Shown here in pieces: positions 1-25,310 of a DNA stretch of 64,000 bases. The notes beneath the pieces are model-generated. The model was not told where the DNA came from. It saw only the letters and a list, made by a program, of their open reading frames with translations, and did not search any database. A program made the position numbers and the translations under genes. Source of the DNA: Halocafeteria seosinensis (Eukaryota); contig LVLI01000229.1 in the NCBI GenBank assembly GCA_001687465.1, positions 186,001 to 250,000 on the forward strand, written 5' to 3'. Position 1 is the stretch's first letter. Each line of letters opens with the position of its first letter.

Positions 1-3000
1 TTCTGGAGCAGCCAGTTCCAAGTTAAAGTTGAAGAACGACAAAATCTGTAAAGCACGTTCCATCGAGCTTGGCCATTGCACACGTGTCCTTGCAAAGATC
101 GCCACCACTTGGAAATAATCTAAACCAATTGTAAATGCCGCAAGTTGGATCTGCTTAGCATTGATCAAGTATCCACCAACGGTAGCACCAATAGCAACGA
201 CTGCGAACATAACACCAAGTAGCCAAGCATGGTTTGGGCACGGTTCGCATTCACCATTGATCCGGAAATGAGTTCCATCTGCACACATGCTGCAGCGTGT
301 GGACGTATAGCCGTCTGCACACGTATTGTTGCCAATGCAGGCAAACTTAGGCTCGCATGCGAGGAATACGGGACACTCGTCGCGTCCTTGACGCTTTTTG
401 TGACATCTACTGGAGGGAGTCGTATCATTCACTCTCCAGAATCCTTCCTCCGAGTAGACAAGGTCGATCCTACGCTCCCCTCCAGGGCAGATTGCTCCTA
501 CTTCCTCTTTCGGACAATATAAACACGACTCGCCTTCTAACCCGTACCAGTCGGGTTCGCACCGGCTCACTATGAATTCTCGCCATTTAGGAAAATTCAC
601 TTGTCTCTCCGCTACCGTAAGGTTTATACTCTTTGGACCTACGCCATCGCGTTGCATTCGACACTCAATAAATGAATCACTTTGCACGAAGGCGTTCTCG
701 CAGGGAATACCACCCAGTACCACAGAAACGGATTTCGTTGCTGGTCCAAAGTTTTGGCCTTCTATCATGATCACTTCGCCTTCAGCATCCGGGGTATTAG
801 GCTTTACAGCTACGATCCGGGGAGGATCGTATGACATCATGGCAGTTTCAACCGAGCCAACCCCACCAACCGTCACTTTCGTAACCAACTGAGTACCAAT
901 TCCAGGAGCTAGTACGCAATATACTTCGTCGTGCTTCATCGCACTGAGTAAAGCAGCCGTGATTGCGCATGGCTCTTCTCCCACGCGCACCCCAACAACC
1001 CCAGCAGAGGGGCCAAATTTTTACCAATTATGCGAAGCGGTACGTTACCAGATGCAGGAAAGCAATTTGGGTATTCCTTCATGCAGTCTTCGTTTCCGTT
1101 TAGAGTCGTGCATCTGTCGAAGGGGACGCAGGTTCGACTGGTTTGAAAGTCGTCGTTTGACCGGTCAACTTGGAAAACCTCAGGAGGATCGTATGTGAAC
1201 GCCAAAGGCGCCAGTAAGCCAGCAATGGGACTGCTCCACCCGTCAACGAGTACGCTAACTTGGTTCTCACCGTATCCTTCCGGGAGTGTGAATGCAGCCA
1301 TGGTATGGTTGAGCGATGCACCGAGAACTTCTTTGCCCCCGAAAACCACTCTTCCACTAACGCCGAAGTTCTCCCCTGTCACCACCACAGTAATCGGGTT
1401 GTTTGTATCATCCAGACCCGAAGTCGGATTCTCTCCGGTCAGGGTAAATATAGTATCCATACGGGCAGGTCTATACGAAAGCAACTTGTCGTCGACTACC
1501 GTCTGACCATCAACAGTGACTCGTATTTCCACATTATCGCCTTGGCCATTAGGCGGAATACATTCGATTTCTTGGTGATCGGAGCGAACAATTGTACACG
1601 TTTCTCCTCCAACAAGTACCGTTACATCGGGTGAATTAACTGCTACGGGAAGTCCAGGTCCTGTGGGAGGCCCAAAGTTATCTCCCTGAATTATTATCCT
1701 GTCCTCATCAGGGTTGACAAAAGTAGGAATAGATTGCGGTTCCACATCGCTTAAGACAGGCTTGTCAAAACTTATCGTGAAACTATCTTGGTTACTAGTC
1801 TGCCACGTATAGAATGTAGCAGGTAAGTCGGCGCCGGAGCCCTCAGGCAACATCACCCGGAGGGTGTCATGGTGATGATAGGTAATGTTGACAGGCCCCA
1901 ATCCGAACACATCTAGGTCCGTGTCCTCACCAAGGGCACTAGAGCCGAAATTGCGCCCTTGAATGAGTATTTCGCCTCCTTGCGTAGGTATCTTCTGCGA
2001 TGATACTTGTATTTGCCGACCCGCGAATGTAGTGGCACAGTCACTGTCCTGTCTGACGTATACCACTCGTTCCAGATTGTCGGGAGCGAGTTGGACCAAA
2101 CAAACAGTAGGTGAAGCATAATCTATAGTGAACTCATTGTCTGGAGAGGACACTCCATTGACTTCTATATTCACCGAAAGTTCTTTCCCGACGTTTTCCG
2201 ACGTTATACACGTGATGTTAGCTCGCCATATTCCGTCATTGCTTTGGATAGGATTCAGCGACCCCTTGACAGCACAGTTCCTTCCTCCGATATCTATCTT
2301 GACGTCTGCAATATCCGTTTGAGGATCAATTCCTTGGATGTCGAACAAAATGAGTTCCTCGTTCCCACTAGTGTTAAAATCGGGCCAAGTAATGTAGGCG
2401 TTCTGACCGGCGATTGTAGGTGCAAGCTGACCAAACTCTCTTGTTTCCGATTCTGCCGGCTGATCCAAAACCTTGATGCGCAGAGCATAAGATGACTTCA
2501 TTAGATTCGGTATAACCATACGAATCTGATTGTGACCGTACTTTTCAGGCGGAATGAGTACCACGACATCATCGACATAAACGGAAGCACAGCAGAGGCT
2601 GCTCTCACATGATTCACCCCCACAAAAGTTCTCCCCATCAATAACAACTTCAAACTCGCCCCCAATAGCTACTCTCGGAGCAATATTGGACAGTTTAGGA
2701 GCACCATAATTAAACCATACTGGACTAGATATTGTGTCTCCTAATTTTACCATTACTGCTCGGTTGGCACCAAATCCTTCGGGCAGAATGAAACTGACCT
2801 CTTGCAGCCCCGACTCCAAGTCAACCCATTGAAGATCTGCAGATGAAATGCCTATTTCGTGAATACTTTCTAACCATGCTTGAAGAGCATCTCCATTAAG
2901 TCCTTCCGCGTTAGCTTTGGAAACGTACTCAGTAGGATGACCTTGCTGGATGGGGAAGAAACGCCCCAGTGTACTCCCGATCTCGTCAACGAATGAGTTT

Positions 3001-6000
3001 TGTTCAACCAATCGGGCTAGCTTGCCGCTACTGTCCATTAAAACTGATACGTCAAATTGTTTCAATAAGTTAACCCCAAAGTTATATCCCCGAAGATACA
3101 CTCGAGGCATACTCCCGTGGATTGTTTGGAAGCCAGTGGGACCATTGTCCGGTTCGATGGATACAATCATCGGAGGAGCGTAGTTTGTGCTCGCTGTGCT
3201 CCGGGCACTTCTCTGACCAGCAACACCCACAATCCATCTGTGGTTACTCCCAGATCCTTTATCTAGCCGGCACCGGATACGAGTGTGGTTCAAGACACGA
3301 CAAGAACTGGCCATGTGCTCTGATCCGCGATTTCCAAAGGATACTCCATCCAATAAACCGCCATGCACCGTCGGGATACCGAAGTTTTCTCCGATAATGT
3401 CGACTTGCTCACCGCCGAGTGTGCTGAGAGCGTTAGGGTCAGATTCGTCTACTCCTTCAAACCCTGTAACCACTGGTGGAGCGTATCCTGTGGTGGATAT
3501 TTCTGAGCTCTGTTGACCTATCGTTACTGTCCAAAAATGGTCGGTGCCGGCCCCAGCGGCTGTTAGGCAACGCAGATTAGCATCATCGATGGACTCACAA
3601 GTATCAACAGCAAACGTCTCATTTCCTTCGCCATATGATACACTATCCGGGATGGTCCCAGGGGGACCAAAATAGCTTCCACCCACAATAACTTCCTCCT
3701 CTCCCCGTGTGTCGAAATCATGGGTTCCCTGGCCAATAGGTTCAAACCTACCGCGTCGGTAACTGGCAATGATGGGAGGGTGGTAGTTACTAGCATTTTT
3801 CAAGACGCCAGACTCTTGGCTACTAACCACGACTCTCCACTGATGATCTTTACCTATTCCTGCAACAGTGGTACATTCCAAAAGAATATGATCGACATCT
3901 AGCACACAATCAACTGCCTCGTATTCCAAATGTCTTCCATAGAATACACGGACTGGCAGTGGATCAAGCCACCGAGGCCCAAAATTTAGTCCCCTCAGCA
4001 GCACGATCGTTTTGCCTTTAGTGTCAAGGTTAGTGGGGGGACTACCGAGGATATCCGTTACAGTGGTCAACACAGGAGGGTCATACGCGAGCGAATCTTC
4101 ATAGTCACTTTTTTCTGACTGCAGTCCAGACACCTCCAGCCTCCAAACGTATCCCAAACCGACTCCTGTGGGAATGTCGCACACCGCTAGCGTATGGTTG
4201 TGGAAAGTCGCGGGACATATAGCTGTGAGAGTGTACTCGTCATTCTCCATGTAAGCTCTTAGGGGATGGCCGCTCGGTCCAAAATTAGTTCCTGTCAGCA
4301 TTACTCCTTCGGAAACTCCCTCAGTCCGGATTCCTTCTGTTAAGCGGGTCACTCTATCCACCATCGGTGACGCGTATGCAGGAGGAGAGCCTGAAGTAAA
4401 CCATCCTGTTTGCTGCGCCCAAGTACTTCCCTGATTGCCCACTATTGCCATGAACTCTATTCCTTTACCAGCTCCTTCGACTGTTGTACACGTAAGTCTC
4501 TCGTCGGATATTATTTGGCACGATGCAGCAGTGTATTGCAGTCTTTCCCTGTTTCTGTACACCACCGTTACAGGAGAAATGCGCTCAAACCCTTGATTGT
4601 CGTGGATAATTTTGGGGCCAAACCCGGTACCTTCAAGAGTGAAGGGCTGTCCGCCCTGTGTTGATGCCGTTGCAGGCCAGCTTTGGACACTTGCAATGCT
4701 CGGAGCTGCGTAGGAGGATACCAATTCTGGAGCTTCGTAAAAGTCCTCATCGATGTGAAGCGTCCATAGAAGATTCCTGCCGACCCCAGCTGGCACAACA
4801 CAAGTGACACGAGTGTTATCCCATGTGCGTGTTTCCAGGGTATACTCTCGAGTACAAGTAGAATTGATGCGCAGTTTCCCATCGTTGCTCTGCAACACAG
4901 CCGACACCCTAGCATTTCGCCAAGCGGGACCTAAATCAGACCCCACAAATTCAACCGTATCACCTCCTAATGTGGAGTGTGCGTAGACACTGAATTCCGC
5001 TATAGTCATATCATTTACGTTATTGACATAAATTGTCACGTTGGCGTCAGACGTCAGTCCTTCTTCATCTTCTATTTGAACGACTGCTTGATGAAGGCTC
5101 TTGGTCTCATAATTGAGCCCCTTTCCCGAAGCAAGCCGCAATTCTTTGCCGACGAACGTTAAGAGATCAGGTACGTCACTCCATAGCACTCTGTAGGAAT
5201 AGCTCATTTCCCTATCTACAGGCGTTCGATGCCTGAATGCCAAGTCTGCCAAGACCGCGTCCGAATCACGAAGATCTTCATCAATGATGGCTTCGAATGG
5301 CTCGGCTTCAAACTCTGGCCCCGTGTTAACGAACTCCACTAACAATGTCAATTGGACTTCATCGTTATGAGACTTTTCATCTTCTACAACCACTGACAAC
5401 GAATAGTCCTTCTTTACGTTGTAATCTAGCTTGGAGCTTAGTACAAGGTTAGTCGAAGCCGTGTGCACCTGGTCAGAAAGCGCGATTTGTGTAGTGCTGA
5501 CGGGAGCTAAACTGTCCCCAGCTAACACCTTAAACGAGAGTCTGCCCGCGCTGCCTATATCGGGGTCAAACGCTTCAACTGCTTGAAGAATTGAACCAAT
5601 CTGAGCATCTTCCCGCAGCTGCACAACCGTCCCTGGTGGAATATTTCGAATGATAGGCCTCTGGGGAATGTCAATCACTGAGAGATGGATCTCACCAATT
5701 TCGCTTTCTCGGTTGGTTTGGTCAATACATACAACCTGAAGTACTCCTTGCCGGTGCGTCATAGAAAAATAGTCAATCTCCGCCGAATCTACAGCGGAAA
5801 TCTCTCCGGTTGACGGCTTGACGCGGAATAGATTTGAGAACTCCAAAGGAACTCCCCCACGGATACTGTATTGTAGAACAGAGTCTTCATTCCCGTCAGA
5901 GCACACTAATTTAAGCATCAGTATGGGACCTTGATGGTGCTCATTAACTGTGCCATCGTACCTATAGATGTCATGTGAGTTTTTCTTCACAGGGCCCACC

Positions 6001-9000
6001 CATTTTGGTGCCACTTGGCTCTCCACGACAGTTATGTCAAAGGATGTTCGAGCCGTCCGATTGGTCGAGTCTTGCACCTCGACAGTAAATTGAAATCTGT
6101 CACCTACCTCTACTCCAAAGTCAATCTTTGCTGTGTCGTTTCCATCGGCACCTTCTGAAGGATTAGCAATTGAGGCATTTGTGTTCATACCAAGCTCCAA
6201 AATGGGTTGAATGAGACCATCCTCTCGAATAGAGAGAAAAAATGGACCTATCACCAACCTATACGAAAGCTCCTCTGAATCAGGATCTCTCGCTCTGACA
6301 CTACCTAAGTCGCGCTCCTGATATACTATATCCATAGTAAACGTTTGGACTGGGGGATCGAAGATGGGTGGCTCCTCAACGTCTAAAATGTCTACGCGAA
6401 CCAAGGCTTCCGTTGAAACTTCGTTAACGGTATCTTCAACTCTTATGCGCATTTGGTAAAACGCATCTGGTTTCATGGAATCATAATCAAGATGAGCTCC
6501 AGCGGCAACCTGCAGTTCTCCTGTTACCGTATTCAATGTAAAGACATCCTCATGCGACAGCTGAATAAAGCGGAACACAGAGGGGACAGACGAGTAAGGT
6601 CGGGAAGTGCCTGCGTAAACGTCTGGATCTTTAACGTCAATGGTAGCGAAAACAACGCTGGCCGGTGTCGATAATTCATATACTGATACGGTTTCTGTCG
6701 TGATCTGAGGCGGTTCAGGCACGTCCACAACGAAAATTGTAAAAGTTGCTTCCGCAGTTAGCTCTGCAGATGCTGCGTCGGTAACTCTCACTAGAATCGC
6801 ATACTCATTCTGGGATTCATAGTCTAAACCATTGCCAAGATTTACCGTCAACCGTCCAGAGGTTTGCTCCAGACTAAAGATACAGTCACTAGCGGATCCA
6901 TCCATTTCGACTATCTCAAATAAGAGTAGATTTTTTTCAAGATCGCAGAAATGCTCCAATAAGTCGACGTACGCATTTGGGTCCAATTCATTCATCGCCA
7001 AATCACTAGATGGCTGCAAGTAGCGAGGTGCCTGGTTTTGCTTCACGATATTCAACGTAATTTGAGTTTCCGCAGACATCGTGGGACCAGGCTTGGTATC
7101 AATATTGTTTGTTACCTCTGCTGTTACACGAAGTGTAACAGTTTTATCGTACGACTCACAAGTACTGCAATCAGGCGTTTGACATCGTAGGGCAATAAAG
7201 CCGGTAGTCCCAGTGATTGTAACGGAGCCGTCACTTGATAGTTCCACGCGCTCTTCTGTCTGACCTCGATTATTAATCGCACTTAGCAGTGTAAACGTAA
7301 ATTCATCGCCGTGGTCGTCGCTAGCTTCAAGGGTGGCAAGTATCCCAAACTTGCGTTCACCAATATCGATACGCGTGATCAAAATTTTGGGAGCATTTCG
7401 GAGTTCCTGTACATACACTTCTAAAGCAGTATCAATATGTCCCGAGACCCTATCAGCGTATCGTATTGGAAGGTAATTGGGTAGGTTACCTCGGTTACTG
7501 TAGTCCAAGTATTTCGGGTCCTTTACGGTTACAATTCCATTCTCGGAGACAGCGAAGACTTCGCAAGCAGTATCAAGACCGCACCCACCCTTCGCAGCGA
7601 AGATCTGATCACCATCAGGGTCGGTTACAAAGTCTTCGTGCAAAATTGTTTGTCTAAAATTGCGCTGTATGTCGTCAGTTGTTGCAACAATGGTCCCCTT
7701 TTCTGCCGCCTCCACAACATAGAGTACAGGCATTGTGTCCTTAATCCTAGGAGGTCTATTTCTTTCACTGACAGTAATCTCAAGCCTCTGTATTATTTGG
7801 CCACCGTTTTCGGGTCTATTATCACTTATTAGAATGAAGAGCGTCATGGCAGCAGGTCCGTCCTGTAGAACCAACGGATCGGCCACACGAAGTTGCCCGG
7901 TGCAACTGTCTAAGAAAAAAGGATGCACTGCGTCTTCAAGAGAACGTCTAAGCCTTCCTCCAGCGTCGGTGAACGTATAAGTTAGCTCATCGCCGTCGGG
8001 ATCGGAAAAGATACCGTTCAAGGGCTGCCCCACCGTCTCGTTGAATGGTTGCCCCCTTCTGGCGATGACTGCAATGGAACCTGACTCGCCATCGATTCTC
8101 CGTGGAACGGAGTTGACAAACTCCACTCCGATCGAGATAGTACATTCCTTATCGAGTTGGATACTATTATCTTCCTGTAGCACCCCTTTTATTTTCACTT
8201 TGTATTTGTCACATTGGACGAATTGAAGAGTCTCCCCGGCTCCCACAGCAAGTTCTCCTTTTGTCTGAATTATTGGAGTGCTCGATGTGTCTCCATTAGG
8301 ATAATACAGAGAACTTTCATCTACCATAGACTTGATGCGAAATGGCGAATTTCCGCTAATATCATCATTGCACAATCTACCGTCCTTTCGTCGACCGTCT
8401 TCCAACACTTGCGTAATTTGGTAGATCAGTGATTGATAGGAGGTTCGTACCTCCAAAAGGAATCTTTCCCCAATTTTTGTATCACTGTCTCTTGCCACGG
8501 CTATTTCAGGAGCGAAAATATCTCTGGGATTGGAAGCGCAATGAAGATCCTTCCACATCAGCTTCTCAGCTCGTAAACCTTTATGACATACATAGTCAAC
8601 AGAACATTCGGAGCAGCCAGTCCTTCGAGATTTATCGGGCCCTTCTGGAGTTGTATAATGCCCCACTCCACAGTGGTTCTGAAATCCTTCAACACAGTAT
8701 TTCCGTGGATCATTAGACGAACAGGGTAATTCACGTGCAGAAGTACTCCCCGGAGGGCACTGAAAGCCATCATCGCATTTTCCGTTGCATTCACTGGACG
8801 TTAAGCCCTTGTCTTTGCCATACATTCCCTCTCGACATTTGAACCTCTCCCCCTTGTCACAGTAATATCCTGCATCACAGAGTTGCTGATACCATCGGTA
8901 GTTCCCGTTAGCATTAAGAGGTGCACTATAATAGCGAGGGCTCACGGACAGCGGACTTAAACTGCCAGGAGGACAGTATTTCGTCTGGCCGCCACAAGGC

Positions 9001-10132
9001 TTTTCATTACCCTCCGCGGTTCCAGCAGGACAGTATCTTCCAGCTGGGCAAATACCAGTACAAGACGGTGAGGCCTCCCCGACTCTTCCGTAGCGCCCTC
9101 CGGGACACACACCTCCATCCGTTGCTGAAGTGCTACCAGCATTGTTACAATATCTTCCTGCCGGACAGTTACGACATTGATTCACACTTCCTAAGCCTGT
9201 AGAACCCCCGTATCTACCAGCTGGGCAAGCCCCCGTGCTTACTGAACTTATTGTGTACCTTCCCTGAGGGGCAATAGGGCAATAAGACTGCCTGCTGCTA
9301 GTTTGGTAGTATCCAGATGGACTGCCAGTACATGCGCTCTTTCGACTTCCAGAAGAGTAGTAGCCTGGTGAACATGACGAGCAACCATTACTACCTGTAT
9401 TGCTAAACTGTCCCGCTCCGCAGTTTCGGCAACTGGAAGTGGTATATCGATACCGTCCTGCAGGACACGAGTTACAAGCATTGGACCCGGAAGAACTGGT
9501 TTGTCCAGCTGCAATTTTTCCCAATATAATAAATTCAATTTCAACAATCATCTCCGCAAGCTTGGCACTAATGCTTACATGAGCACGTGGTGTCCTGTTG
9601 ACTCTACAGGCTGGTCAGTATCAACCAAGCTACCACACGAGTTGGAGCTGTCGGAATTGCCCTTCAGGACAATACGCACCGTCTTCAGGGTATACGGAAT
9701 GTGTCTCCTGTCCCAGTGGCCGATATGCTTCTTCAACGCGAAGCACGTCGTGCAGCTACTGCCCGGCGGGATACTACCAGCCCTCAACCAGCCAATCCAG
9801 TTGTAGAACCTGCCCCTCCGGTCAAATATCCGGGACACAGGCCAGGGGCTGCAGTACCTGTCCAGCGGGACAATACGAACACTCTAAGCGCTGGTGTTAT
9901 AATTGCCATCGTTGCACATCAAGAAGCGAATTCGAACATGGATTGGGACGGCACTTACGCTGCAGTAACAGCAGTACAGATAACTCCTGTAATAATAGCT
10001 GTAGTAACGGTTAATGTATCTCCCAGGATGACAGTTGGACCACCTCCAGCTACATTGTGCGGAAACAACATCTAAACATCCACTCCAGATCAGCAAAAGA
10101 AGGACAAAAAGTTCGAAAGATCTCGAGAGCAT
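1..10132 (-). CDS. Giant Cys-rich repeat / cadherin / IPT-TIG / multi-TM surface protein, copy A; runs off the left edge; as assembled it is disrupted by an inverted exon 2 and a 1-nt frameshift at ~1015-1022
   Basis: Exon 1 is 10132-9959 (signal peptide MLSRSFELFVLLLLIWSGCLDVVSA, GTAAGT donor). Exon 2 is on the opposite strand at 9610-9903. Exon 3 starts at 9508 after TTGCAG. Cadherin motifs include DPDGDELTY, LDYE, DVPEPP and DPDSEELSY, and there are many IPT-like GxNFG motifs. It is colinear with copy B. Downstream of ~1014 the shifted frame again matches copy B (GPSAGVV...DYFQVVAIFARTRVQWP...LELAAPE). Confidence 0.88.
9586..9903 (+). other. Inverted segment carrying the intron-1 acceptor and nearly all of exon 2 of copy A
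   Basis: The + strand reads ...gttgactctacag|GCT GGT CAG TAT CAA CCA (AGQYQPSYHTSWSCRNCPSGQYAP...KRWCYN), homologous to minus-strand exon 2 of copies B and D. It is flanked by GCA (9583-9585) and TGC (9904-9906). The last exonic bases and GTAAG donor remain on the minus strand at 9582-9574. Confidence 0.93.
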
Positions 10133-11324
10133 GTTAACCCCCAGCGCGATGTGACGATTTCCTGTAAGTTAGGAGCAACTCCATAGTGTGAACAGTCACG
10201 TATTGTCACAATGCAAGGGTTTGACAGGGCTTTCCAGATTCCACGGAAGTATCCGTTACTCCGCAGCAAGGGAAACATTAGAAGTCGCGTAGCCCATCCC
10301 TCATAAAAGTGCCGTCACCCGCTCCTTCCATTTGGTTTAGGACGCTTAAGCCAGGAACCCAAGCATCTAATACAGAAAAGAGCTCAAACCCTTAAAAACA
10401 GGACACTAAGCCATTCTCAAGTCCTTGGAATTCTCCGTTCAATTCCGTTTACGGTCAAGGAATCAATGACAGCGGAAGCGCAAGAAATGCCATAGGAACA
10501 GTACATATACACCTATCTACCGATCTTATGTCGTGAGGGACTTACTGCTTAATGAAAATTTTCCAACAATTTGCTCTTTTAAAATTTTCCGATTTCTACT
10601 TTTGAACGAAAAAATGACGAAAACGGTTGTTACTTCTCAATATTTGTCCCCGGGGTGCTCCCCAGTGATCGGATAAATCGAAGGCTTGAGGTCGAGAGAC
10701 TTTTGCGGGTATGAAGAACCAACAAACACAGACATATCGTATGTTCTAGTTTACCTTCTAAAAGGATAGATTCCTCCAATACTTTCCAGCCTTGTTCTTC
10801 ATACTTTTTGTTGTTATTTTTGGCTCTATGCTGTCCCTGAGGCGGAAACCCGCCGACCTCACTGCTACTTCCGCCCCTTTTCGCTGCGGGATATTCCACC
10901 TGTAATCCATGATTTCACTGGCAAGCACTGCTCCTATGGGACTGTCGTGGACATGTTAGATATACAGAATGTACATTTATCGAAAAAGGGTTTGAGCTGA
11001 CCTAAACATCTTGCGACAAAGGAGTATAGACTCTATAGAGCCTGCGAGAATCTTGAGGGGACTCCGCCTCCAAACTCCGACAAGTTCAACATGGGTGTGA
11101 CATGGCCTAAAATCACTTTTAAATGCCTTTATCGAAGTACTGGCACTGGTTAGGAGGAGGATGTAGATCCTGAGCATCCCATGCAGAAGAGTGCTCAGAG
11201 GAAAATGTCGTCCTTCAAGGGCGCTATGTCGCGCAGTTCATTGGTCGCAAGTGCGATCCACCCTCCCTGAGACTAAATTAAGACTTGTCTATACTGCTCG
11301 GTTAGGAATCAAATTTTGCTTGGT

Positions 11325-14300
11325 TCACTGCTCTTCTTTTTCTGGAAAGAAAGATTGCGAACCCACGTTTGAGGGAGAGTCTCGAGCTGAAGGCGAAGTA
11401 GGAGACTCGGTGCCTCTGGAAGATGCGCTACGTTTCCTGTTGCTTCGGAAAGAACTTGATCTTCTGAGGTTTTTCAACGAATTATTTTGGTTCTTGAATG
11501 CTAAAGATCGCTCTGTCGTTTCATCCTTCTTCGGGGCTGCTTTCTGATCGGTTACAACAGAGGGCGTGTAAGCACGTTTGAAGAATTGCCTCTGGCTGTT
11601 GGAGATCATGTGCTGACGAAAATCATTCTTCTTCTCTTGAATATTTTCTTCGCGGGCTGTATGAAGTGTTTCAATTTTACGCAAACGTCGGATCTCAGCT
11701 AAAGCCTCCTCCAACTGTGCTTTGTACTCGCGACCCTCTTCCACCACTCCGGCTGAAGTGCTTCGGCCCTTATTTCTATTGGGCTGTGGCATTGCAAGAG
11801 GGTTGACTTGTGTATCATAGCTATCATCCACAGATAAAGAAGTTGTAGATGATCCACATCGCAACAGCTTTTCAGATCTGGTGGAGCCAATATCTTCAAT
11901 TTTCCGGGCCTTCACTTTCTTCCCGCACGAGAACCACGCAGTAATCATCAGCGCTGTGTAAGGACGGAACGTACTCAGAAGTTCAAACGCGAGTACCAAG
12001 ACGAAGTATACGCAGCTCAGCGTTATCAATACTACGGTGAGTATACCTAACGTCTCGAATTCGGCCTCATGCCGCTCCCTACGCTCCCCTTGGAATCTTC
12101 CTGATAAGAACATAATACCTGATAGATTCACCAGTAGGGCGCTTCCAAGTAAAACTGATTCAACCACATTGTAGTCAGCAAGGGCCCGCACAATTGGCTC
12201 CGACACCGGGATACCGTCCCTAGCTTCTTCAAGAAGTTTGTGTTGAGCATTCATCGTGTTCGCCTTTTTACTAGCCCTTTCTTTCGACGCGCAGGCATCA
12301 AGCACTGACTGTATCTTCATATGCATTTCATCGCCTTCATGAACCTTTCGTTGGTGCTCCTCCAGCACTTCCTGATATTGACGTTTGCTCATATAGGGGA
12401 TATGCCGAATGTGCATCGCGAACGAAGCAAACACCACCAAGAGTGACATGCCCAGTTGATACGTTGGAGACGTCCTGAACATCAATGCTGTAAACGCAAT
12501 CAACAGTTTTCTCATGAGAATCAGCGTGATCCAGTACCATTTTCCAGGCTTGAATAAGTAATAGAGACGTTGGTACCTTCGGCGGAACACATAGTGTGGA
12601 TTGGTAATTGGGCTCTTCCCCTTGCCATGTGCTCGGAGGATCTGGTCGTGCTTCGCTTTCTCTTTATTCCGACGAAGGAAGACGAAGGAACCGATAGGAA
12701 ATGACAGGACGTACAAGAATGCTGTTATCAACGCCAACGGCAACAACAGCTTCACGTGAACATCAGACTCTCCGCAAATAATGTTGGTGTTTCCGGCCAT
12801 GTACAAGTTTCCGTCAGGTGGATCAGTTGGGCTACAGTTGAACACGTCCAACGTCATCCGAGCGAGAAAGAGGTACAGAACATACATTATAATAATCATT
12901 GTTGCTATCAACGCGTTCAAGTGGGTATGCCGCTTACTCGCAGGACGTTTTAGTACCCATAACTTGTAGAGGTAGTGTACACAGTACAACAGCCCTAGCA
13001 GTACAGCCGCTGCCAGTGGAACTGCCATGGTGGCCATCCATCGAACCTCGTAAGGTGGCGCCGGCTGGACATAACATTCCGGAGCAGCCAATTCCAGGTT
13101 AAAATTGAAGAACGACAATATCTGTAAAGCACGCTCCATCGAGCTTGGCCATTGTACCCGGGTCCTCGCAAAGATCGCCACCACTTGGAAATAGTCTAAA
13201 CCAATTGTAAACGCTGCAAGCTGAATCTGTTTAGCATTGATTAAGTAGCCACCAACTGTAGCACCTATTGCCGCCACTGCAAACATAACGCCGAGCAACC
13301 AAGCATGTTTTGGACAGGGCTGACATTCACCATTGATCCGAAAATGAGTTCCATCGGAACACATGCTGCAGCGCGTGGAAGTGTAGCCGTCGGCACACGT
13401 ATTGTTGCCAGTGCACGCAAACTTTGGCTCGCAGGCCAGGAAAACAGGACATTCATCGCGCCCTTGACGCTTTTTGTGGCATCTACCCGAGGGGGTTGTA
13501 TCATTCACTCTCCAGAATCCTTCTTCCGAGTACACCAGGTCGAACTTACGCTCACCGCCGGGACATACTGCTCCGACCTCCTCATCCGGACAATACAAGC
13601 AAGACTCGCCTTCCAGCCCATACCAACTGGGCTCGCATCGACTCACAATGAACTCGCGCCACTCGGGGAAGTTTACCTGTCGTTCTGCAACCGTAAGGTT
13701 GATACTTTTGGGGCCCACTTTATCACGTTGCATGCGACACTCAATTAGCGAATCACTTTCTACGAAGGCGTTTTTACACGGAATACCACTCAAGAGTACA
13801 GAGACCGACTTCGTTGCCGGTCCAAAGTTTTGACCCTCGATAATGATCGGTTCGCCTTCCGCATCAGGGGTATTTGGTTTAACAGCTATTATTCGAGGCG
13901 GATCGTATGACATTGTGGCAGTCTTCACTGAATCCACGTTTCCAACCACCACCTTCGTGGTTAGTTGAGTACCAATTCCTGCAGGCAAGCTACAATATAC
14001 TTGATCATGTTTCATAGCACTGACTAACGCTTCCGAGATGATGCACTCGGCATTTCCAACAAGTACCTCAACAACTCCTGCGGACGGTCCGAAGTTCTTA
14101 CCCAGAATACGAAGTGGAACATTACCCGAGGCAGGGAAACAATTTGGGTACTCGGTCATGCAGTTTTCTTGGCCGTTTACAGCTGTAATACATCTTTCAA
14201 AAGGAAGACAAGTTCGGCTTGTTTGATAGTCATCGTTGGCCCGGTCAACTTGGTAAACTTCAGGAGGATCATATACAAATGTTAGCGGTGCCAACAATCC

Positions 14301-17300
14301 CGCACTTGGGCTGCTCCAACCATCAACAAGAATGCTCACTTGGTTTTCTCCATACCCTTGAGGGAGCTCGAAGGTGACCATAGTATGGTTAAAGGATGCT
14401 CCGGCAACCTCCTCATCGTCAAAAATTACTTTGCCGCTAACTCCAAAATTTTCACCTGTGACGACCACAACAATGGGAGTATCGGAGTCATCCAGACCCG
14501 AGGTGGGATTCTCGCCTGTGAGGGTAAAGATGCTATCCATGTTTGCCGGTTTGTACGAGAGGAGTGTGTTGTCCGATACAGTCTGTCCGTCGACGGTGAC
14601 GACTACGTCAATTTGATCCCCTTGTCCATTGGGCGGAATACATTCGATTTCGTGGTGATCCGAGCGAACTACTGTGCATGTTTCTCCGCCAACAAGTACT
14701 GATATGTCTGGTGTATTAACAGAATGTGGGATATCTGGCCCCGTTGCTGGTCCGAAGTTACCCCCGCGAATGAATATTCTGTCTTCATCAGGGTCAATCA
14801 GTGTAGGAATAGATTGCGGTTCTATATCACTCAAAACGGGCTTATCGAAACTTATTGTGAAGCTGTCTTGGTTACTAGTCTGCCATGTGTAGAAGGTGGC
14901 CGGAAGGTCGGTACCCGAACCCTCTGGCAGGATGACACGTAACATTCCATGACCGTGGTATGTGATGTTGACAGTGCCTAAACCGAATACGTCCAAGTTC
15001 GTATCCTCCTCTAGGGTGCTTGATCCCAAATTGAGCCCTTGAATAAGTAGTTCACCACCCTCGGTGGGAATCTTCTCAGCAGACACCTGAATTTGTCGGC
15101 CCGCTAAGACAGCGGCACATTCCCTCCCCTGTCTGACATACACGACTCGTTCCAGGTTATCAGGTGCTAGCTGGACTAAGCAAACTGTAGGAGATGCATA
15201 ATCAATTGTGAACTCATTGTCTGGGGAGGAGACTTCGTTCACCTCTATGTTAACTGAAAGCTCTTTCCCAACATTCTCGGGAGTGAGACACGTGATGTTT
15301 GCGCGCCACACACCGTCATCTCCCTGAACTGGATTGAGCGGTGCCTTAACTACGCAGTCTCTCCCGCCGATATCAATCTTGATATCCGCAATATCTGTCT
15401 GAGGGTCGATTCCTTGAATGTCGAACAAAGTAAGTTCCTCATTCCCACTGGTGTTAAAATCGGGCCAAGTGACGTAAGCCTCCTGACCAGCAATCCTCGG
15501 TGCAACTTTTCCAAACTCCTGTATTTCTGTGGCTTGGGGCTGATCCAAAACTTTGAGTTGGAGGCTATACGACTGTTTAAGTTGATTGGGAATCGTCATG
15601 CGTATCTGATTATGACCGTAGTTTTCCGGCGCGACGTCCACTACCTCCCCGTCTACATAAATTGATGCGCAGCAAACGCTACTGCCACAGGATTGCCCTC
15701 CGCAAAAGTTCTCTCCATCAATAACTACTTCAAACTCCCCTCCCATGGGCACCCTGGGAGCGATGTTCGAGATTTTAGGACTGCTATACTCGAACCAAAC
15801 AGGACGAGATATTTTGTCTCCCAACTTTACCATAACTGCTCGACTAGCGCCAAATCCTTCGGGAAGGATGAAACTGATCTCCTGCAGCTCTGACCCGGAG
15901 TCAACCCACTGAATATCCGCAGATGCAATCTGTGTTTCGTGAATGCTCTCCAACCATTCCTTTAGAGCATCCCCATTAATTCCTTGCTCACTAGCCATGG
16001 AAGCGTACTCGGTTGGGTAAGCGTGCTGGATGAGGAAGAAAGCGTCGAGAGTATTCCCGATTTCGTCAGTGAAAGAGTTCTCTTCAACTAAACGAGCGAG
16101 TTTGCCCTCATTGTCCATAAGAATAGATATGTCAAATTGCTTTAATAGATTCACTCCGAAGTTGTACCCTCGTACGAAGATCCGTGGCATACTCCCATGT
16201 ATTGTCTCGAAGCCTGTGGGACCGCTCTCGGGTGTCATTGATTCAATGGTCGGAGGAGCGTAGTTCGTGCTCGCTGTACTCCGCTCACTTCGCTGCCCGG
16301 CAACACCGACAATCCATCTATGGTTACTACCAGACCCTTTGTCTACGCGGCATCGTATCCGCGTATGATTTAAAACACGGCAAGAACTGGCAACGTGCTC
16401 GGAACCCCGATGTCCGAATGACACTTTGTCCAATAGATCCCCATGAACGCTGGGAATACCAAAGTTTTCCCCAATGATGTCAATTTCGTCTCCACCGAGG
16501 GTATTGAGGGCATTTGGGTCGGATCCATCAACTCCTTCAAAACCTGTCACCATTGGAGGAGAATAGCCAGTGGTAGAAATCTCCGAGCTTTGTTGACCTA
16601 CAGTTACTGTCCAGAAATGGTCGGCACCGGCTCCGGGGGCAGTTAGGCAACGCAAATTAGCATCGTCGATCGATACGCAAGTTCGGACTACGAATGTTTC
16701 ATTTCCTTCGCCATACGATACCCGGTCCGGTATGGTCCCGGGTGGGCCAAAGTAGCTTCCGCCAACGATAACTTCCTCATCACCGCGCGTGTCGAAGTCG
16801 TGAGTTCTTTGTCCTATAGGCTCGAAGCGTCCTCGTCGATAGGTAGCAATGATGGGTGGGTGATAATTGCTAACATTTTCCAATGTTCCGGAAGTTTGGT
16901 TGCTAACAACGACTTTCCACTGGTGGTCCTTTCCAACTCCTTCAACCGTAGTACATTCCATCAGGGTGTGCGCGACGTCGAGGTCACAGTCTGTCGCCTC
17001 ATATTCCAAGTTTCTTCCATAGAAGACACGTATCGGCAGCGCGTAATGCCACCGAGGCCCAAAGTTGATTCCCCTCAGCAGCACAATTTCGTTGCCTTTA
17101 GTATCAAGGTTAGTTGGTACACTGCCCAGGATATCCGTTACGGCAGCCAGTACAGGAGGATCATATGAAAGAGCGTACTTCGCGTCACTGCTTTCCGACT
17201 CCAACCCAGATACTTCTATTCTCCAAACATACCCCGTCCCCACTCCCGCAGGAATGTCGCACAAGGCCACGGTATGGTTGTGGGAGTCTGCTGCACATGT

Positions 17301-20300
17301 GCTGAACAGACTATACTGATCATTCTCCATGTAGGCCCGGATAGGATGCCCCTTGGGTCCAAAGTTCGTTCCAACTAGCAGAACTGCTTCAGCTACTCCT
17401 TCGGTAGAAACAACATCGACTAACTTCACCACGCCCTCTATATTGGGGAGGGCATATGACGGAAGATCACTAGGCTCAAACCATGCAGTCTCCTGTGCCC
17501 AATCAGCGCTTTCGTCTCCCAAGATTACCTTAAAACGGATTCCTTCTCCAGTCCCTTCAACCGTTTTACAGGTTACTTGACCGTCTGATACAACTTCGCA
17601 TAAAACTGCACTGTGCGTGTCTCCTTCGTCATTATTATATAGTACAGAAACTGGTGTAGGGACTTGGCCACCGGTACCACCGTGGATTGTCGTTGTGCCA
17701 AGCCCCTCGCAGGCTAGACTGAATGCCTGACCACCCTGGGTAGAAGCCATACCCGGCCACGAGTGAACATCAACGATTTTCGGTGCTATATAGGAGGATG
17801 TCAGCTCCGGTGCTGTGTAAGTATCTTCGTCGACCTGAAGCGTCCAAAGAAGATTTCGTCCAATCCCAGCGGGCACCGTGCATCTTATCCCAGTATTATT
17901 CCAGACATGGTTCTCTTCGCTATACTCGCGATTGCACGAGGCATTTGTACGGATTTTCCCGTCGCTACTCCGCATTGAAGCTGACACTCTAGCCTCCCTC
18001 CAAACCGGACCTAGGTCAATTCCCACAAACTCAGCTGTATCGCCACCAAGTGTAGAGTGCAGGTCAACGTTGAATTCGTTGACCACCAAATCGTTCACAT
18101 TCTTCACATAGATTGTAACATTGGCATCAGAAGTCAGTTCGTCCTCATCTTCGATTTGGACGACGGCGCGGTGCAATCTAGTTTCCTCATAATTAACGCT
18201 CATACCCGGTGCAAGTCGCAGCTCCTTACCGGAAAACGTTAGCAGATCCGGGACGTCACTCCATAGCACTCGGTATGTATAGCTTACTTCTCCGTCTACA
18301 GGCGTGCGGTGAGTGAACGAAAGATCGGACAAAATTGCCTCCGAGTCGCGAATATCCTCCTGGATCGTAACCTCATACACTTCAAAGTCAAAAACTGGAG
18401 CACTATGCACAAATTCCACGAAGAGCTCGTATTCGAATTCATCTCTCAGTGAACCCTCATCTGTCACTGTAACTTTCACCACGTAATGCTTCTTTATATT
18501 GTAGTCCAAATCTACAACCAGGGTTAAATTGCAACGGGCCATGTGACCATTTTGGGAAAATACCAATGGTGCGACGCCCACCGGAGCGACGGTATCTGTG
18601 TCGTCAACCAATGAGACACTGAATTCCAGGTTACCGCTGCTTGACTCATCCGGATCGAATGCTTCAATCTCCGCGAGTATTACTCCTGTCTGGGAGTCCT
18701 CTGGTAGCCGTATCACAGGATCTAGAGGTACGTTACGGAATTCAGGTGACTGCTGGACATTTGCGACAGTAATGTTGAGTCTTCCAGGTTCACTTTCTCT
18801 GTTCGTCTCGTCAATACAAACAACTTCTAGGATTCCTTCTCTATGCTGCATGCTGAAATAGTCAAGTTCCGACGGAACTGCCGCTTCTACTTCTCCAGTG
18901 GAGGGATTAACTCTAAAAAGACTAGAGAACTCGAGAGGAGAGCCGCCACGACTGCTATATCGCACGGTACCACCATTGGGATCATTGCACTCCAGCTTAA
19001 AACCCGGAATTGGGCCTTTGTGGTGTTCTTCTATGCGAACGGGGTATGGTCTGCTCCCTGTCTCCGTGAAGTAGTCTGCAAAATCATTGATCCACCTTGG
19101 ATCAGCTTGAGCCTCTATAACACGTATGGAAAATGTGGCTTCCGTCGTTAAATTTGTCGAGTCCTTAACTTCTACAGTGATGTGTAAAATTTCACCAACT
19201 TGGATCCCAAAATCAACGCCCCCATTGTCTCCGTCCGAGCTATTGACTGGTCCTGCTCCCGCTGAGTCAACCAAAGGAAGAATAGTCCCATCGTCTCTGA
19301 TTGAGAGGAACGAGGGTCCATCCACGAGATGATATGAAACTGTGTCGTGAACGTCGGGATCTTCCCCTTTCACTGTTCCCAACTCTTCGTCCTGGCGGAC
19401 TACATCCATAGTGAAGTTCTGTACGGGTGGATAAAAGAGCGGGGGCTCGTCCACGTCTAAGATCGTAACTTTTAGCGAGGTAGTAGATGACACATCGTTT
19501 ACAGTATCTTCTACCTTGATGCTCAAGAGATAAAAGGGTTCAGGGTAGAGATCCTCGTAGTCAAGAGAATACCCCACCGCAACTAAAATTTCTCCATTGT
19601 TGCGGTCTACCGCAAATATATCTGAATGAGACAATTGCGTAAACCGAAATTCAGACGGCGCCGACGAATACGGTTTAGAAGTTCCCGCGAAGACATCGGG
19701 GTCATCAACATCAATGATGGCAAACGCTCCATCTCCGTTTGTTGTCAGCTCATTCACGAAAACTTCTTCGGTAGTAACTGCGGGAGGTTCGGGGATATCA
19801 ACAACAAAAATGGTAAAGGTTGCTTCAGTGGCCTGATCCGGAGAGGCTGCATCTACCGCACGCACGACAACAACGTATTTGTTGTGGTCTTCATAGTCTA
19901 ATCCGTTGGCACTAATTGTTAGTTCCCCAGACGTTTGCCCCAACGTAAACAAATTGTTATTGGAAGAACCATCGATCTCAACGACTTCAAAGAGCAATAG
20001 GTTATTCTCAATGTCACAGAAGTAAGGAAAGAAATTGATGTGGGCGTTCGGATCTAACTCGTCCAGGGTCAAATCCTCTGCAGGTTGAAGGTACCGAGGC
20101 GCCTGGTTTTGTTTCACTATATTTAAAGTGATTTCTGTCTCTTTGGAAACTGTCGGACCTGGTTTGTCGTCCACGTTGTTAGTTACCTCAGCTTTTACCC
20201 GCAGAGTGACCATCTCATCGTAAGTGTCACAGCTGCTGCAATCAGAGGATGCGCACTGAATTGAGATAAAACCAGTTTCGCCGGTCACTGATATTTTTCC

Positions 20301-23167
20301 GTCACTTGCGAGGGCGATCCTTTCTTCTGCCATACCTCGATTATTCACAGCGCTCACTAGCGTGAATGTAAATTCATCCCCATGCTCGTCAATTGCTTCA
20401 ATATTTCCCACGTCCCCGACCTCGCGCTCGTTAACATCAAACGCCAAAGTTGAAACTTGAGGCGCCTTACGAAGTGCCTGGACATAAACTTGTAGCGCGG
20501 TGTCGATATGTCCCGAGAGTCTATCCGCGTACCGAATTGGAAGAAAACCAGGCAAGGTGCCTGGATTACTGTAATCAAGATACCTGGGATCATTGACCTT
20601 AACGATTCCATCTTCTGAAACAGAGAACACTTCACAGGCAGTGTCGAGCCCGCAACCCCGTTTTGACGAGAAAATTTGGTCTCCGTCAGGATCCGTTACA
20701 AAGTCTTGGTGAAGGATTGTTTGTCGAACATTCCGGTTTTTGTCATCTTTTGTCGCAACAATAGTCCCCTTTTCTGTTCCTTCCACGACATAGAGGATAG
20801 GAAGTGTGTCCTTAACCCTTGGAGGACGATTCCTTTCCTTGACAGTAATGTGTATTTCCTGAATTAATGTTCCTACATCCTCAATTCTGCGGTCGCTGAC
20901 CAACACAGTGAGACTCATGGTGGATGGACCATCCTGCAGCTCCAAGGGGTCCGCTACTCGCAGCTGGCCAGAGCAACTATCTAGGTAGAACGGATGTCCG
21001 GCCTCACCAAGGGACCTACGGAACCTAGCGCTAGAATCAGTAAACGTAAAAGTCAGTTCATCGCCATCAGGATCTTCAAATATGTCACTGAGTGCATTCC
21101 CAACGGACTCATTGAAAGGTTGACCACGTCTAGCAGTGATTTCCAATGGCCCCGATTTTCCGTCAGTGCGTTTCGGGGCGGAATTGACAAATTCAACACC
21201 TACTGCCACGGAACATTCCTTTTCCAAGCGGATATTGTTATCTTCTTGAAGTACCCCTTTGAGCTGCACTTTGTACTTGTCACAGGTGGCAAACTGCAAA
21301 GTCTCTCCAGCACCTATCTGCAGCTGACCCTTCGTCTGAGTAATTGGACTGTTGGAGCTGTCCCCGTTAGGATAGTAAACTGAATTTTCGTCAACGGATG
21401 ATCTTATCCGAAATGGCGCATTCCCTGTAACGTCAGCTGTGCACAAAGTCCCATCCTTCCGTCGGCCATCCTCGAAAACAGAGGTTATCTCATACGTCAA
21501 ACTCTGATAAAGGGTTCTTACTTCCAAGTGCAGCATACTGCCAATGTCAAGGTCATTCTCTTTCGCTTCAGAAACTTCGGGGGCAAAGATATCTCTTGGA
21601 TTGTTGGAGCAATGCAAATCTTTCCATTTCAGTTTCACTGTCCGCAATCCCTCATGGCAGACGTAGTCGACAGAGCATTCCTGACATCCAGTTCGACGCG
21701 ATTTATCAGGTCCCTCCGGGGTTGTGTAGTGTCCTGCACCACAATGGTTTTGAAAGCCTTCAACGCAGTATTTGCGAGGATCGCCGTTAGAACAAGCAAG
21801 CTGTCTTGGTGAAGTGCTTCCTGGAGGGCAACGGAAACCATCGTCGCACTTTCCATTACATTCACTCGACGTCTGACCCTTGTCTTTTCCATATATGCCT
21901 TCACGGCATTTAAATCGTTCACCATTGTCACAATAATATCCAGCATCACAAATCTTTTGACTTGACCGATGCTTTTCATGCGCACTTAAGGGAGTGCTAT
22001 AATACCGCTGGCCAACTGATAGAGGGCCGTCACTTCCAGCAGGACAGTATTTTGTTTTGCTCCCACATGGTCGTTCATTTCCTTTAGCGGTGCCCGTAGG
22101 ACAGTACCAGCCGGCTGGGCACTGACCACTACAACTTCGGGAAGCCTCTCCAGCTTTACCGTAGCGTCCGCCAGGGCATTTTCCGCCATCTGTTCCTGAC
22201 GTGCTTCCGGCATCGTCACAATATCTACCCGCGGGACAGTTACGGCATTGATTTACGCTCCTCAGTGCCGTAGAAGCTCCGTAACGTCCAGCAGGGCATG
22301 CTGCAGTGCTTGTTCGACTTGTTCCATAGCGCCCCCTCGGGGCGGCGTCACAATGAGACTGGCGTGAGCTTGTTTGATAGTACCCCGAGGGGCACCCTGA
22401 GCATGCTGTGTTCCGACTTCCCGTTGAAAAGTATCCCCGCGGACACGATATGCAGCTATTTCTTCCAGAGTTGCTGTAGGTGCCTGGTCCACAATTCCGG
22501 CAGCTGGTTCTGCTGTACCGATACTGGCCAGCAGGACAGGAACGGCAGCTGTTCCACCGAGCTGAGCTAGTTTGTCCGGCTGCAAGATCCGAACCAGTAG
22601 AAATCAGTGTTTCACTTCTACTACCTCAACACTTGCATCACTTACAAGGGCAATTCCGACACCACCGACGACTGGCTTCGTACTTTCCCGCCGGACACGA
22701 ACTACAGCTTCGCGCTCTTGTTCCTGAAATTTGCCCCGCTGGACAGCTTCTACACCCTGACTGGCGGGAAGAAGGCTGATATTGTCCAGCCGGACAATTT
22801 CGGCACCCACGATTGCCTGATCCAGACGCGTATTGTCCACTTGGACAGTTTCGGCAGGAGGTGTAACCAATACTTGGGGCATACTGGCCAGACGGACATA
22901 AGCGGCAACTCCGACTGCTGTGGTACGAGGGTTGGTATCGACCTGTCTGCATTGACGGAGAACAGCAAAGTTTTCCGCGTCGAGCACCAATACTGCTTCA
23001 AATAGCTGACTTACTTGGCAGTGACAGCACTTATGCCAGTAATTGCTCCAATTGCTTTGATATCTTCCTGGGTGGCAATTCCACCTTCTCCAGGAACATC
23101 CCGCAGACACCACATCCAATAGGGTGAGGAAACTCAGAAGCAACAGAATAGACGAGCTTCCCGACAT
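11325..23167 (-). CDS. Giant Cys-rich repeat / cadherin / IPT-TIG / ~9-TM surface protein, copy B (intact, 3902 aa; nonagonal-cadherin-like)
   Basis: Three exons: 23167-23015, 22946-22646 and 22579-11325, totalling 11709 nt (divisible by 3), with GT-AG introns. By eye, exon 3 stays open from 22579 into the 3440-aa ORF. Order of features: signal peptide, CxxCPxG repeats, cadherin repeats, IPT/TIG repeats, juxtamembrane Cys-rich region, about nine hydrophobic helices, Ser/basic cytoplasmic tail. Confidence 0.93.
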
Positions 23168-24694: not shown

Positions 24695-25310
24695 TGGTTC
24701 CCGAGATTTGCCCAGCTGGGCAATTTCTACATCCTGACTGGCGGTTAGAAGGCTGATATTGTCCTGCGGAGCAATTTCTGCATCAACTATTGCCTGATCC
24801 CGATGCGTATTGTCCGCTTGGACAGTTACGGCAAGACCTGCAGCCAGTACTTGGGAGGTGCATAAGGGGAAGTTTCGCCAGTACAGTAGTAGAGTGTATA
24901 ATTAATGGCCTGCCGGCTGGATATTCAAATGAACCAAGACTACATCCATGCACCGTGAAGACAGACAAGGCTACAGTACCATCTATCCCTATTGGATAAC
25001 AGCTCTCCACAAAAGGGGTGCGTCACAACCATCAAGTTTCGGCAACTCCGACTCCTACTTGTATGATAGCGAGCTAAGCGAGTTTGGTATCGGCCTGACT
25101 GCCGTGAAGTGGATTTACTTACTTGGCAGTGCCAACAGTAAACGTCTCTCGCCCCCTCGCCCCCGTTTGACATATTTTCCAGGATAACAGTCCGACCAAC
25201 TCCATCTCACACACACATATGTGACAGATAGCACTCTGCGGACACGACACCCGATAGAGTGAGGAGGCTCCACGGAAAATAAAGAGTATCATAGATGGCC
25301 TCCAGGTCAT
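24695..25310 (-). pseudogene. Decayed 5' part (exons 1-2) of a third family member, copy C
   Basis: Frameshifted signal peptide (MTWRPSMILFIF / SLLTLSGVVSAEC), RWSWSDCYPGKY, YCWHCQ|GTAAGT, and a shrunken 24-nt intron. Exon-2 homology SCRNCPSGQYASGSGNS*CRNCSAGQYQPSNRQSGCRNCPAGQISGT contains an in-frame stop and an insertion. Confidence 0.85.
25208..25230 (-). mobile_element. 23-nt insertion: 3' tip of a (TG)n-tailed element
   Basis: TATCTGTCACATATGTGTGTGTG splits VVSAEC|RWSWSDC in copy C exon 1. Positions 25208-25232 match 33312-33336 at 24/25. Confidence 0.7.

What the first reader, a model, noticed from the sequence alone, without database searches (positions are those of the whole stretch)
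9574..9960. A cleanly inverted exon in a giant surface-receptor gene: candidate DNA-inversion on/off switch
Seen in the sequence: copy A is on the minus strand, but its exon 2 and upstream acceptor (ctctacag) lie on the plus strand, 9586-9903. The segment is bounded by inverted microhomology GCA/TGC, extendable to ATGAGCA versus TGCCAT with one gap. Re-inverting it gives a 79-nt GT-AG intron 1, an exon 2 of 294+3+4 = 301 nt (the same length as in copies B and D) and a 70-nt intron 2. The protein then reads CCYCS-AGQYQP...WCYNCS-SGQTSS, with no base lost or gained. The inverted exon has no stops and keeps its cysteines. As assembled, exon 1 (phase 0) cannot splice in frame to exon 3 (phase 1), so the gene is off. 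Inference: this is a very recent microhomology-mediated inversion, an assembly artefact, or a reversible switch like bacterial phase variation or ciliate unscrambling, which I do not know of in such genes. No recombinase is visible in this window.
Basis: partly seen in the sequence, partly recalled or inferred. Interest (0 to 1): 0.9.

Follow-up and report, generated by a model that had tools for sequence, protein, structure and literature searches.

The report
Flipped exon in a dying gene
A 318-base piece of a giant cell-surface receptor gene is flipped, but it has only 3-base matching ends and the same gene copy also carries a frameshift, so it is likely an ordinary one-off mutation in a recently broken duplicate gene, not an on/off switch.

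Summary
The inversion is real. Exon 2 of copy A lies on the opposite strand (9610-9903, 69% identical to copy B exon 2, E 2e-50). Re-inverting 9586-9903 restores the 174/79/301/70 structure. One contig of run X1 spans both junctions with no differences, so mis-scaffolding is excluded; X1 may be the window's source. The switch reading is not supported. The flanking inverted repeat is 3 bp, which chance gives 8-16% of the time, and the breakpoints are not unique. No sense-orientation joint was listed. No recombinase family was found in 107 ORF translations. Re-inversion therefore would not restore the receptor. Neighbouring copy C is broken too. Zero stops in 9,969 coding nt date the loss as very recent. 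Best reading: a one-off repair or template-switch inversion in a young pseudogene of a tandem array (0.8). Raw reads and other isolates were not available, so a rare sense allele is not excluded.

The parts
9959..10132 (-). Copy A exon 1 (174 nt; hydrophobic signal-peptide-like start, phase 0 donor at 9958)
9907..9958 (-). Copy A intron 1, 5' part left in place
9904..9906 (+). Right arm of the 3-bp inverted repeat (TGC; also the conserved last Cys codon of exon 2)
9586..9903 (+). Inverted segment, 318 nt: 24 nt of intron 1 with the acceptor (9586-9609) and 294 nt of exon 2 (9610-9903; Ephrin_rec_like Cys-rich repeats)
   Evidence: spanned by X1 contig
9583..9585 (+). Left arm of the 3-bp inverted repeat (GCA)
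9579..9582 (-). Last 4 nt of exon 2, left in place before the native donor at 9578
9509..9578 (-). Copy A intron 2 (70 nt, GT-AG)
936..9508 (-). Copy A exon 3 as read in frame (Cys-rich repeats, cadherin, IPT/TIG); ends at a premature TGA after the frameshift
1015..1022 (-). Second lesion in copy A: 1-nt deletion in a short A5/T3 run, frameshift relative to copy B
   Evidence: present in X1 contig (0 gaps over 1-12564)
1..1017 (-). Copy A coding sequence beyond the frameshift, 88% identical to B, dN/dS about 0.05; runs off the window
11325..23167 (-). Copy B, intact: exons 23015-23167, 22646-22946, 11325-22579; about 3,900 aa with 7 hydrophobic segments near the C-terminus
24696..25295 (-). 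Copy C, broken remnant: exon 1, short intron, exon 2 with a 164-nt insertion (24870-25041, 8-bp direct repeats), an in-frame stop, and no similarity beyond about 24696
26140..27713 (-). Copy D: four exons, about 450 aa of Cys-rich repeats only; no cadherin, TIG or membrane part (truncated or short secreted paralogue)

Best explanation
A 318-base stretch covering most of exon 2 is reversed in place in copy A, likely by a single error of DNA repair or replication, and together with a frameshift further down it likely makes copy A a very young pseudogene beside the intact copy B. Shown: the reversed orientation, its presence in the read-derived contig, the 3-bp flanks, the frameshift, the intact copy B and the broken copy C. 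Inferred: two breaks or two template switches about 320 nt apart were rejoined in reverse, possibly using the 3-bp match; the event happened once and is not programmed to reverse; it was tolerated because the array is redundant or because the copy was already dead. Which lesion came first, and whether either arose in culture or in the wild, is not known.
For: Only the inverted path is listed in X1: one 12,720-nt contig, mean depth 118.5, 0 other letters and 0 gaps over 1-12564; none of the 8 joints listed touches 9583-9906. The flanks are chance-level: a run of 3 or more matches on a fixed diagonal occurs in 7.5%, 12.0% and 16.4% of 100,000 random pairs for spans of 8, 12 and 16; the gapped flank score is reached by 38% of 5,000 random pairs; the longest exact repeat within 60 nt of both junctions is 5 nt, equalled or beaten by 1,998 of 2,000 random pairs. 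A second lesion removes all 7 membrane segments from a part that was under purifying selection (88% identity, dN/dS 0.05). The array shows turnover: homologous spacers A-B and B-C (score 59 against a maximum of 36 in 100 shuffles), broken C, short D. Recency: 0 stops in 9,969 nt holding 417 nonsense-site equivalents gives under about 0.007 substitutions per site since loss. A changed somewhat faster than B (115 against 76 changes where two outgroups agree). Intragenic inversions by MMEJ and repeat-free template-switch inversions are known mutation classes (PMC13484493, PMC5453318; passages).
Against: All support for orientation comes from one run, which may be the window's own source, and from contigs, which drop rare variants. 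No second isolate and no un-inverted allele were found. Two lesions with no nonsense mutation in 10 kb is a somewhat lucky draw. The 3-bp match is at chance level, so the microhomology step itself is not demonstrated. The published short template-switch inversions that I read about are much shorter than 318 nt (17-33 nt in the abstract of PMC8755829). One of three single-outgroup rate tests was flat (128 against 116).
Confidence: 0.8

Rival explanations
1. The inversion is an amplification or library chimera (two template switches, as in MDA) that became the dominant path in the one data set; the organism's gene has exon 2 in sense orientation.
For: MDA chimeras are 85% inverted and over 70% prime on 2-21 nt matches (PMC1855051, abstract and first quarter of the text). 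Only one run holds the stretch and its library is not on record.
Against: MDA chimeras are inversions with an intervening deletion, whereas this needs two reciprocal switches with no loss on the exon side. It is the sole listed path. X1 depth is even: 7 of the 8 listed records lie at 95.8-123.5, one at 56.9 (19 records were laid). Two window proteins are identical to EukProt entries (P0002, P0313), which suggests a cultured organism (inference). No other antisense exon of this family was found in the window.
Confidence: 0.07
2. Copy A is not dead but converted: a cryptic acceptor skips the inverted exon in frame and the frameshift releases the ectodomain, giving a secreted cadherin/TIG protein of about 2,900 aa.
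For: Six AG sites keep the frame open from exon 1: four single-intron routes (9561, 9552, 9408, 9339) and two micro-exon routes that reuse the native donor (9604, 9595). Exon 3 is open for 2,856 codons with 69 of 72 aligned B cysteines kept.
Against: These routes need introns of 355-620 nt against 64-84 nt for the six canonical introns measured. The native exon 3 acceptor is intact and gives a frameshift. An open frame is expected anyway if the lesions are recent.
Confidence: 0.07
3. A programmed, reversible inversion switch (recombinase-driven or RNA-guided) toggles exon 2 and so turns a surface protein on and off.
For: The inversion is balanced on the exon side and hits a surface protein, the class that bacterial invertons often control (listing of PMC11892184). 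Ciliate pointers can be 2 bp (PMC9797194 passages). Contigs would hide a rare ON state.
Against: 3-bp flanks at chance level; 0 inverted pairs of 60 nt or more in the window; no recombinase, integrase or transposase family in 107 ORF translations; B and D lack such an inversion; the ON product would lack all membrane segments; TAG and TGA are used as stops and long genes are uninterrupted, unlike a scrambled ciliate germline.
Confidence: 0.03

Closest known systems
Intragenic inversions as ordinary structural mutations (MMEJ, NAHR; PMC13484493 passages) and four-point template-switch inversions (PMC5453318 passages; type 1-3-2-4 inverts a fragment and creates no repeat)
   Same: In-place reversal inside a gene, little or no flanking repeat, one orientation, splicing disrupted.
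   Different: 318 nt is longer than the microinversions described (17-33 nt, PMC8755829 abstract); here it is in a microbial eukaryote's tandem array and no ancestral allele is in hand.
Bacterial intragenic invertons (PhaVa, PMC10028968 passages)
   Same: An inversion inside a gene that would toggle a coding product.
   Different: Invertons have paired repeats recognised by a site-specific recombinase (11 bp for the thiC example) and both orientations in one clone; here 3 bp, one orientation listed, no recombinase seen, and a second lesion in the ON form.
Inverted MDSs of scrambled ciliate genes (PMC9797194 passages)
   Same: An inverted coding piece bounded by a very short repeat (pointers of 2-20 bp).
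   Different: Needs germline and somatic nuclei, eliminated sequences and template RNAs; this window has uninterrupted long genes, uses TAG and TGA as stops, and its paralogues are not scrambled.
Yeast flip/flop mating-type switching (Ogataea; PMC5720833 and 10.1101/2025.09.09.675088, search listings only)
   Same: The known eukaryotic case of reversible, regulated DNA inversion.
   Different: Inverts 19 kb by recombination between inverted repeats (about 2 kb, recalled) and acts by position silencing; no long repeat exists here.
Cys-rich/cadherin/IPT-TIG/7-membrane-segment giant proteins of microbial eukaryotes (P0163, P0165, P0167)
   Same: Same domain order over the first 1,200 residues of exon 3, 33-38% identity.
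   Different: Unnamed proteins of unknown function; nothing ties them to DNA inversion.

Membership tests
Recombinase-driven inverton (bacterial-type phase variation) | Paired inverted recombination sites flanking the segment | tested here: not met
   3-bp repeat, chance 8-16%; longest exact repeat within 60 nt is 5 nt, reached by 1,998 of 2,000 random pairs
Recombinase-driven inverton (bacterial-type phase variation) | Both orientations present in one clonal sample | tested here: inconclusive
   Only the inverted path is listed in X1, but contigs drop rare variants and no raw reads were served
Recombinase-driven inverton (bacterial-type phase variation) | A site-specific recombinase gene | tested here: inconclusive
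   None in 36 + 71 ORF translations against Pfam (170 ORFs of 90 aa or more were listed, those left out mostly overlap long genes off-frame); no whole genome is held, so a gene elsewhere is untested
Recombinase-driven inverton (bacterial-type phase variation) | The ON orientation gives the full product | tested here: not met
   Frameshift at 1015-1022 cuts off all 7 membrane segments found in B
Scrambled ciliate gene (inverted MDS) | Short pointer repeats, 2-20 bp | tested here: inconclusive
   3 bp fits the range but is at chance level
Scrambled ciliate gene (inverted MDS) | Germline-type DNA with eliminated sequences and a spirotrich genetic code | tested here: not met
   Open frames of 3,750, 1,647 and 988 codons under the standard code; 4 TAG and 3 TGA stops in 7 long ORFs. 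TGA = Cys in Euplotes is; TAR = Gln in Oxytricha is recalled
Scrambled ciliate gene (inverted MDS) | Template RNAs and a corrected somatic copy | not testable with these tools
   No RNA holder listed and no genome
Yeast flip/flop inversion switch | Long inverted repeats flanking the invertible region | tested here: not met
   0 inverted pairs of 60 nt or more in the window
MDA chimera | Inverted join with an intervening deletion | tested here: not met
   Two reciprocal junctions and a full 301-nt exon on re-inversion; the intron side cannot be checked for loss
MDA chimera | Amplified library with uneven cover | tested here: inconclusive
   Library not on record; 7 of 8 listed X1 records at depth 96-124, but contig depth is a coarse measure and most of these records lie near one locus
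One-off intragenic inversion (repair or template-switch mutation) | In-place reversal with 0 to a few bases of junction homology | tested here: met
One-off intragenic inversion (repair or template-switch mutation) | Derived state relative to relatives | tested here: met
   Paralogues B, C and D carry exon 2 in sense orientation
One-off intragenic inversion (repair or template-switch mutation) | Stable single orientation over generations | not testable with these tools
   Needs raw reads or PCR from clones

The most novel reading that the evidence does not exclude
A non-ciliate microbial eukaryote reversibly flips one exon of a giant adhesion-type surface protein at 3-bp pointers, without classical recombination sites, so that a rare sub-population makes a secreted ectodomain while the rest make none.
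Probability: 0.03. Interest if true: 0.85.

Novelty: new member of a known kind. Interest (0 to 1): 0.14.

Why it matters
As it stands it is a tidy snapshot of gene death in a tandem array of giant receptor genes: one intact copy, one copy with two very recent lesions, one decayed remnant and one short copy. It shows that a balanced inversion of a few hundred bases can knock out an exon while leaving a 2,850-codon frame that gene callers would take as intact. Only if both orientations were shown in clones would it matter widely, as a new type of eukaryotic phase variation.

Tried and rejected
No whole genome is held, so the genome-wide scan for antisense exons and recombinases could not be run. 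Run search: no RNA holder listed; this is not evidence on expression. X3 and X4 (same study as X1) gave no listed piece over copy A's exons 1-2 or junctions, and X2 covers only 9011-9262; parts without cover prove nothing and are not counted. Intact copy B was not found either, so these blanks say nothing about copy A. The protein atlas was not available for this sequence. Earlier findings: nothing returned. DNA folding at both junctions was no stronger than shuffles (44% and 50.5% of 200 shuffles as stable), so a hairpin trigger was rejected. The frameshift as a hidden intron was rejected: the alignment to B shows a single 1-nt gap. A suspected 3' remnant of copy C or D was not found. One literature search for reversible inversion in protist surface genes listed 10 of 936 papers, none holding that phrase; this is too thin to claim absence from print.

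Full report
What was checked. I read the region on both strands and compared the window with itself. It holds a tandem array on the minus strand: copy A (running off the left end to 10132), copy B (11325-23167), remnant C (about 24696-25295) and short copy D (26140-27713). Copy B encodes about 3,900 residues: Cys-rich Ephrin_rec_like repeats, cadherin and IPT/TIG domains and seven hydrophobic segments near the end. The rest of the window is ordinary eukaryotic genes, among them THADA, a dual-specificity phosphatase, malate dehydrogenase and BBS7. BBS7 suggests a flagellated cell (established knowledge of the BBSome). The organism was not identified. Two window proteins are identical to EukProt entries (P0002; P0313).

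The plus-strand stretch 9610-9903 is 69% identical in protein to copy B exon 2 (E 1.8e-50) and has no stop. Re-inverting 9586-9903 gives 174/79/301/70 nt for exon 1, intron 1, exon 2 and intron 2, against 153/68/301/66 in B and 165/84/301/64 in D. B, C and D carry the exon in sense orientation, so the inverted state is derived. No other antisense exon of the family was found in the window; the only other plus-strand hits were weak (E 5.7e-7 or worse), near 63800-63990, 22732-22854 and 33219-33347.

The boundaries are less special than claimed. The segment takes 24 nt of intron 1 and 294 of 301 exon bases, so one break is inside the exon. Any pair with start+end = 19489 gives a 301-nt exon; all 17 pairs tried stayed in frame, and 9579-9910 has its own 2-bp flanking repeat. 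A run of three or more matches on such a diagonal occurs in 7.5-16.4% of 100,000 random pairs, by the span allowed. The gapped flank alignment score is reached by 38% of 5,000 random pairs. The longest exact repeat within 60 nt of both junctions is 5 nt, equalled or beaten by 1,998 of 2,000 random pairs. No inverted pair of 60 nt or more exists in the window. Loss or gain on the intron side cannot be judged.

It is in the reads, as far as contigs show. Run X1 holds all sampled words of 8800-10400. One contig of 12,720 nt at mean depth 118.5 covers 1-12564 with no other letters and no gaps, and none of the 8 joints listed for the four runs touches the junctions. This excludes a scaffolding error. 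It is not independent support, because X1 may be the window's source, and contigs drop rare variants. Seven of the eight X1 records listed lie at depth 95.8-123.5 and one at 56.9 (19 laid); I infer an unamplified library, with the caveat that most of these records lie near one locus. MDA chimeras are mostly inversions with an intervening deletion primed on 2-21 nt (PMC1855051, abstract and first of four parts); a balanced double switch that becomes the only path is a poor fit.

Copy A lacks one base at 1015-1022 relative to B, and X1 carries the same state. The frame then stops at 936. The lost part is still 88% identical to B with dN/dS about 0.05 over 339 codons, so it was needed until recently. 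It contains all seven membrane segments of B; the in-frame exon 3 product of A has none. A re-inverted copy A would give about 3,015 residues with no anchor (arithmetic), so flipping back cannot restore the receptor.

The damage is recent and the array turns over. Exon 2 and exon 3 of A against B show near-saturated synonymous sites (pS 0.85 and 0.78) and low amino-acid change (pN 0.24 and 0.19). There are 0 stops in 9,969 coding nt holding 417 nonsense-site equivalents, which bounds neutral change since loss at about 0.007 per site, if mutation types are equally likely. Cysteines: 69 shared, 3 only in B, 1 only in A. A changed more than B against three distant outgroups (163/134, 159/114, 128/116; 115/76 where two agree), a sign of weaker constraint, though one of the three tests is flat. 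Copy C has a 164-nt insertion between 8-bp direct repeats, a stop and a truncation; D ends after about 450 residues. The A-B and B-C spacers are homologous (score 59 against at most 36 in 100 shuffles).

Mechanism. Most likely (0.8) a single repair or replication error rejoined a 318-nt piece in reverse. The use of the 3-bp match is plausible but not shown. With the native exon 3 acceptor the message goes out of frame and stops early. Rivals: a library chimera (0.07); conversion into a secreted ectodomain through one of six cryptic acceptors that keep the frame, which need introns of 355-620 nt (0.07); a programmed reversible switch (0.03). No recombinase, integrase or transposase family appeared in 36 + 71 ORF translations, but no genome was available.

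Comparison with known systems. It works like an ordinary intragenic inversion: MMEJ and NAHR are named causes (PMC13484493, passages), and template switching makes inversions with or without flanking repeats (PMC5453318, passages; PMC8604942, abstract; PMC8755829, abstract, 17-33 nt events). It fails the tests for bacterial invertons, which use paired repeats and a recombinase and show both orientations (PMC10028968, passages). It fails those for scrambled ciliate genes (PMC9797194, passages): long genes here are uninterrupted and TAG and TGA are stops. It fails those for yeast flip/flop switching (search listings only; repeat length recalled). No supplements were read.

Verdict. A real, derived, very recent inversion; a new instance of a known kind of mutation in a young pseudogene. 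Interest 0.14. A rare sense allele is not excluded, because only contigs of one run could be examined. The searches that found nothing are listed under Tried and rejected.

Noticed in passing
window 10797-20000 and 11502-12873 (runs X3, X4): An 11,484-nt X3 contig identical to the window begins at 10797, about 530 nt past the stop of copy B, and X4 pieces lie in the 3' end of B's coding sequence; both runs have longest records near 15 kb. They look like transcript contigs of copy B (inference; the runs are not on record as RNA).
   Followed up: partly
window 24870-25041: 164-nt insertion in copy C exon 2 between 8-bp direct repeats, with no second copy in the window; possibly a small mobile element with a target-site duplication.
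   Followed up: partly
window 9011-9262 (run X2): A 252-nt contig from a 2024 metagenome labelled soil is identical to copy A exon 3 at depth 2.7; it does not reach the junctions.
   Followed up: partly
window 79-453, 12279-13220: Diverged contigs in X1, X3 and X4 match the 3' part of the gene, so further paralogues lie elsewhere in the genome; one is at about half depth (56.9) in X1.
   Followed up: no
window 36506-36591 and 36921-37006: An 86-nt, 73% identical inverted pair about 330 nt apart in a region with ankyrin-repeat hits; not explained.
   Followed up: partly
window 63792-63992 (+): Weak match to the Cys-rich repeats at the right window edge, perhaps the start of another family member; no Pfam hit at E 0.001.
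   Followed up: no
window 49149-49373: A 79-nt direct repeat, 90% identical, 146 nt apart, just past a proteasome-subunit ORF.
   Followed up: no
window 25060-25122 (-): Copy C intron 1 appears much shorter than in A, B and D (about 29 nt to the aligned acceptor), another sign of decay.
   Followed up: no
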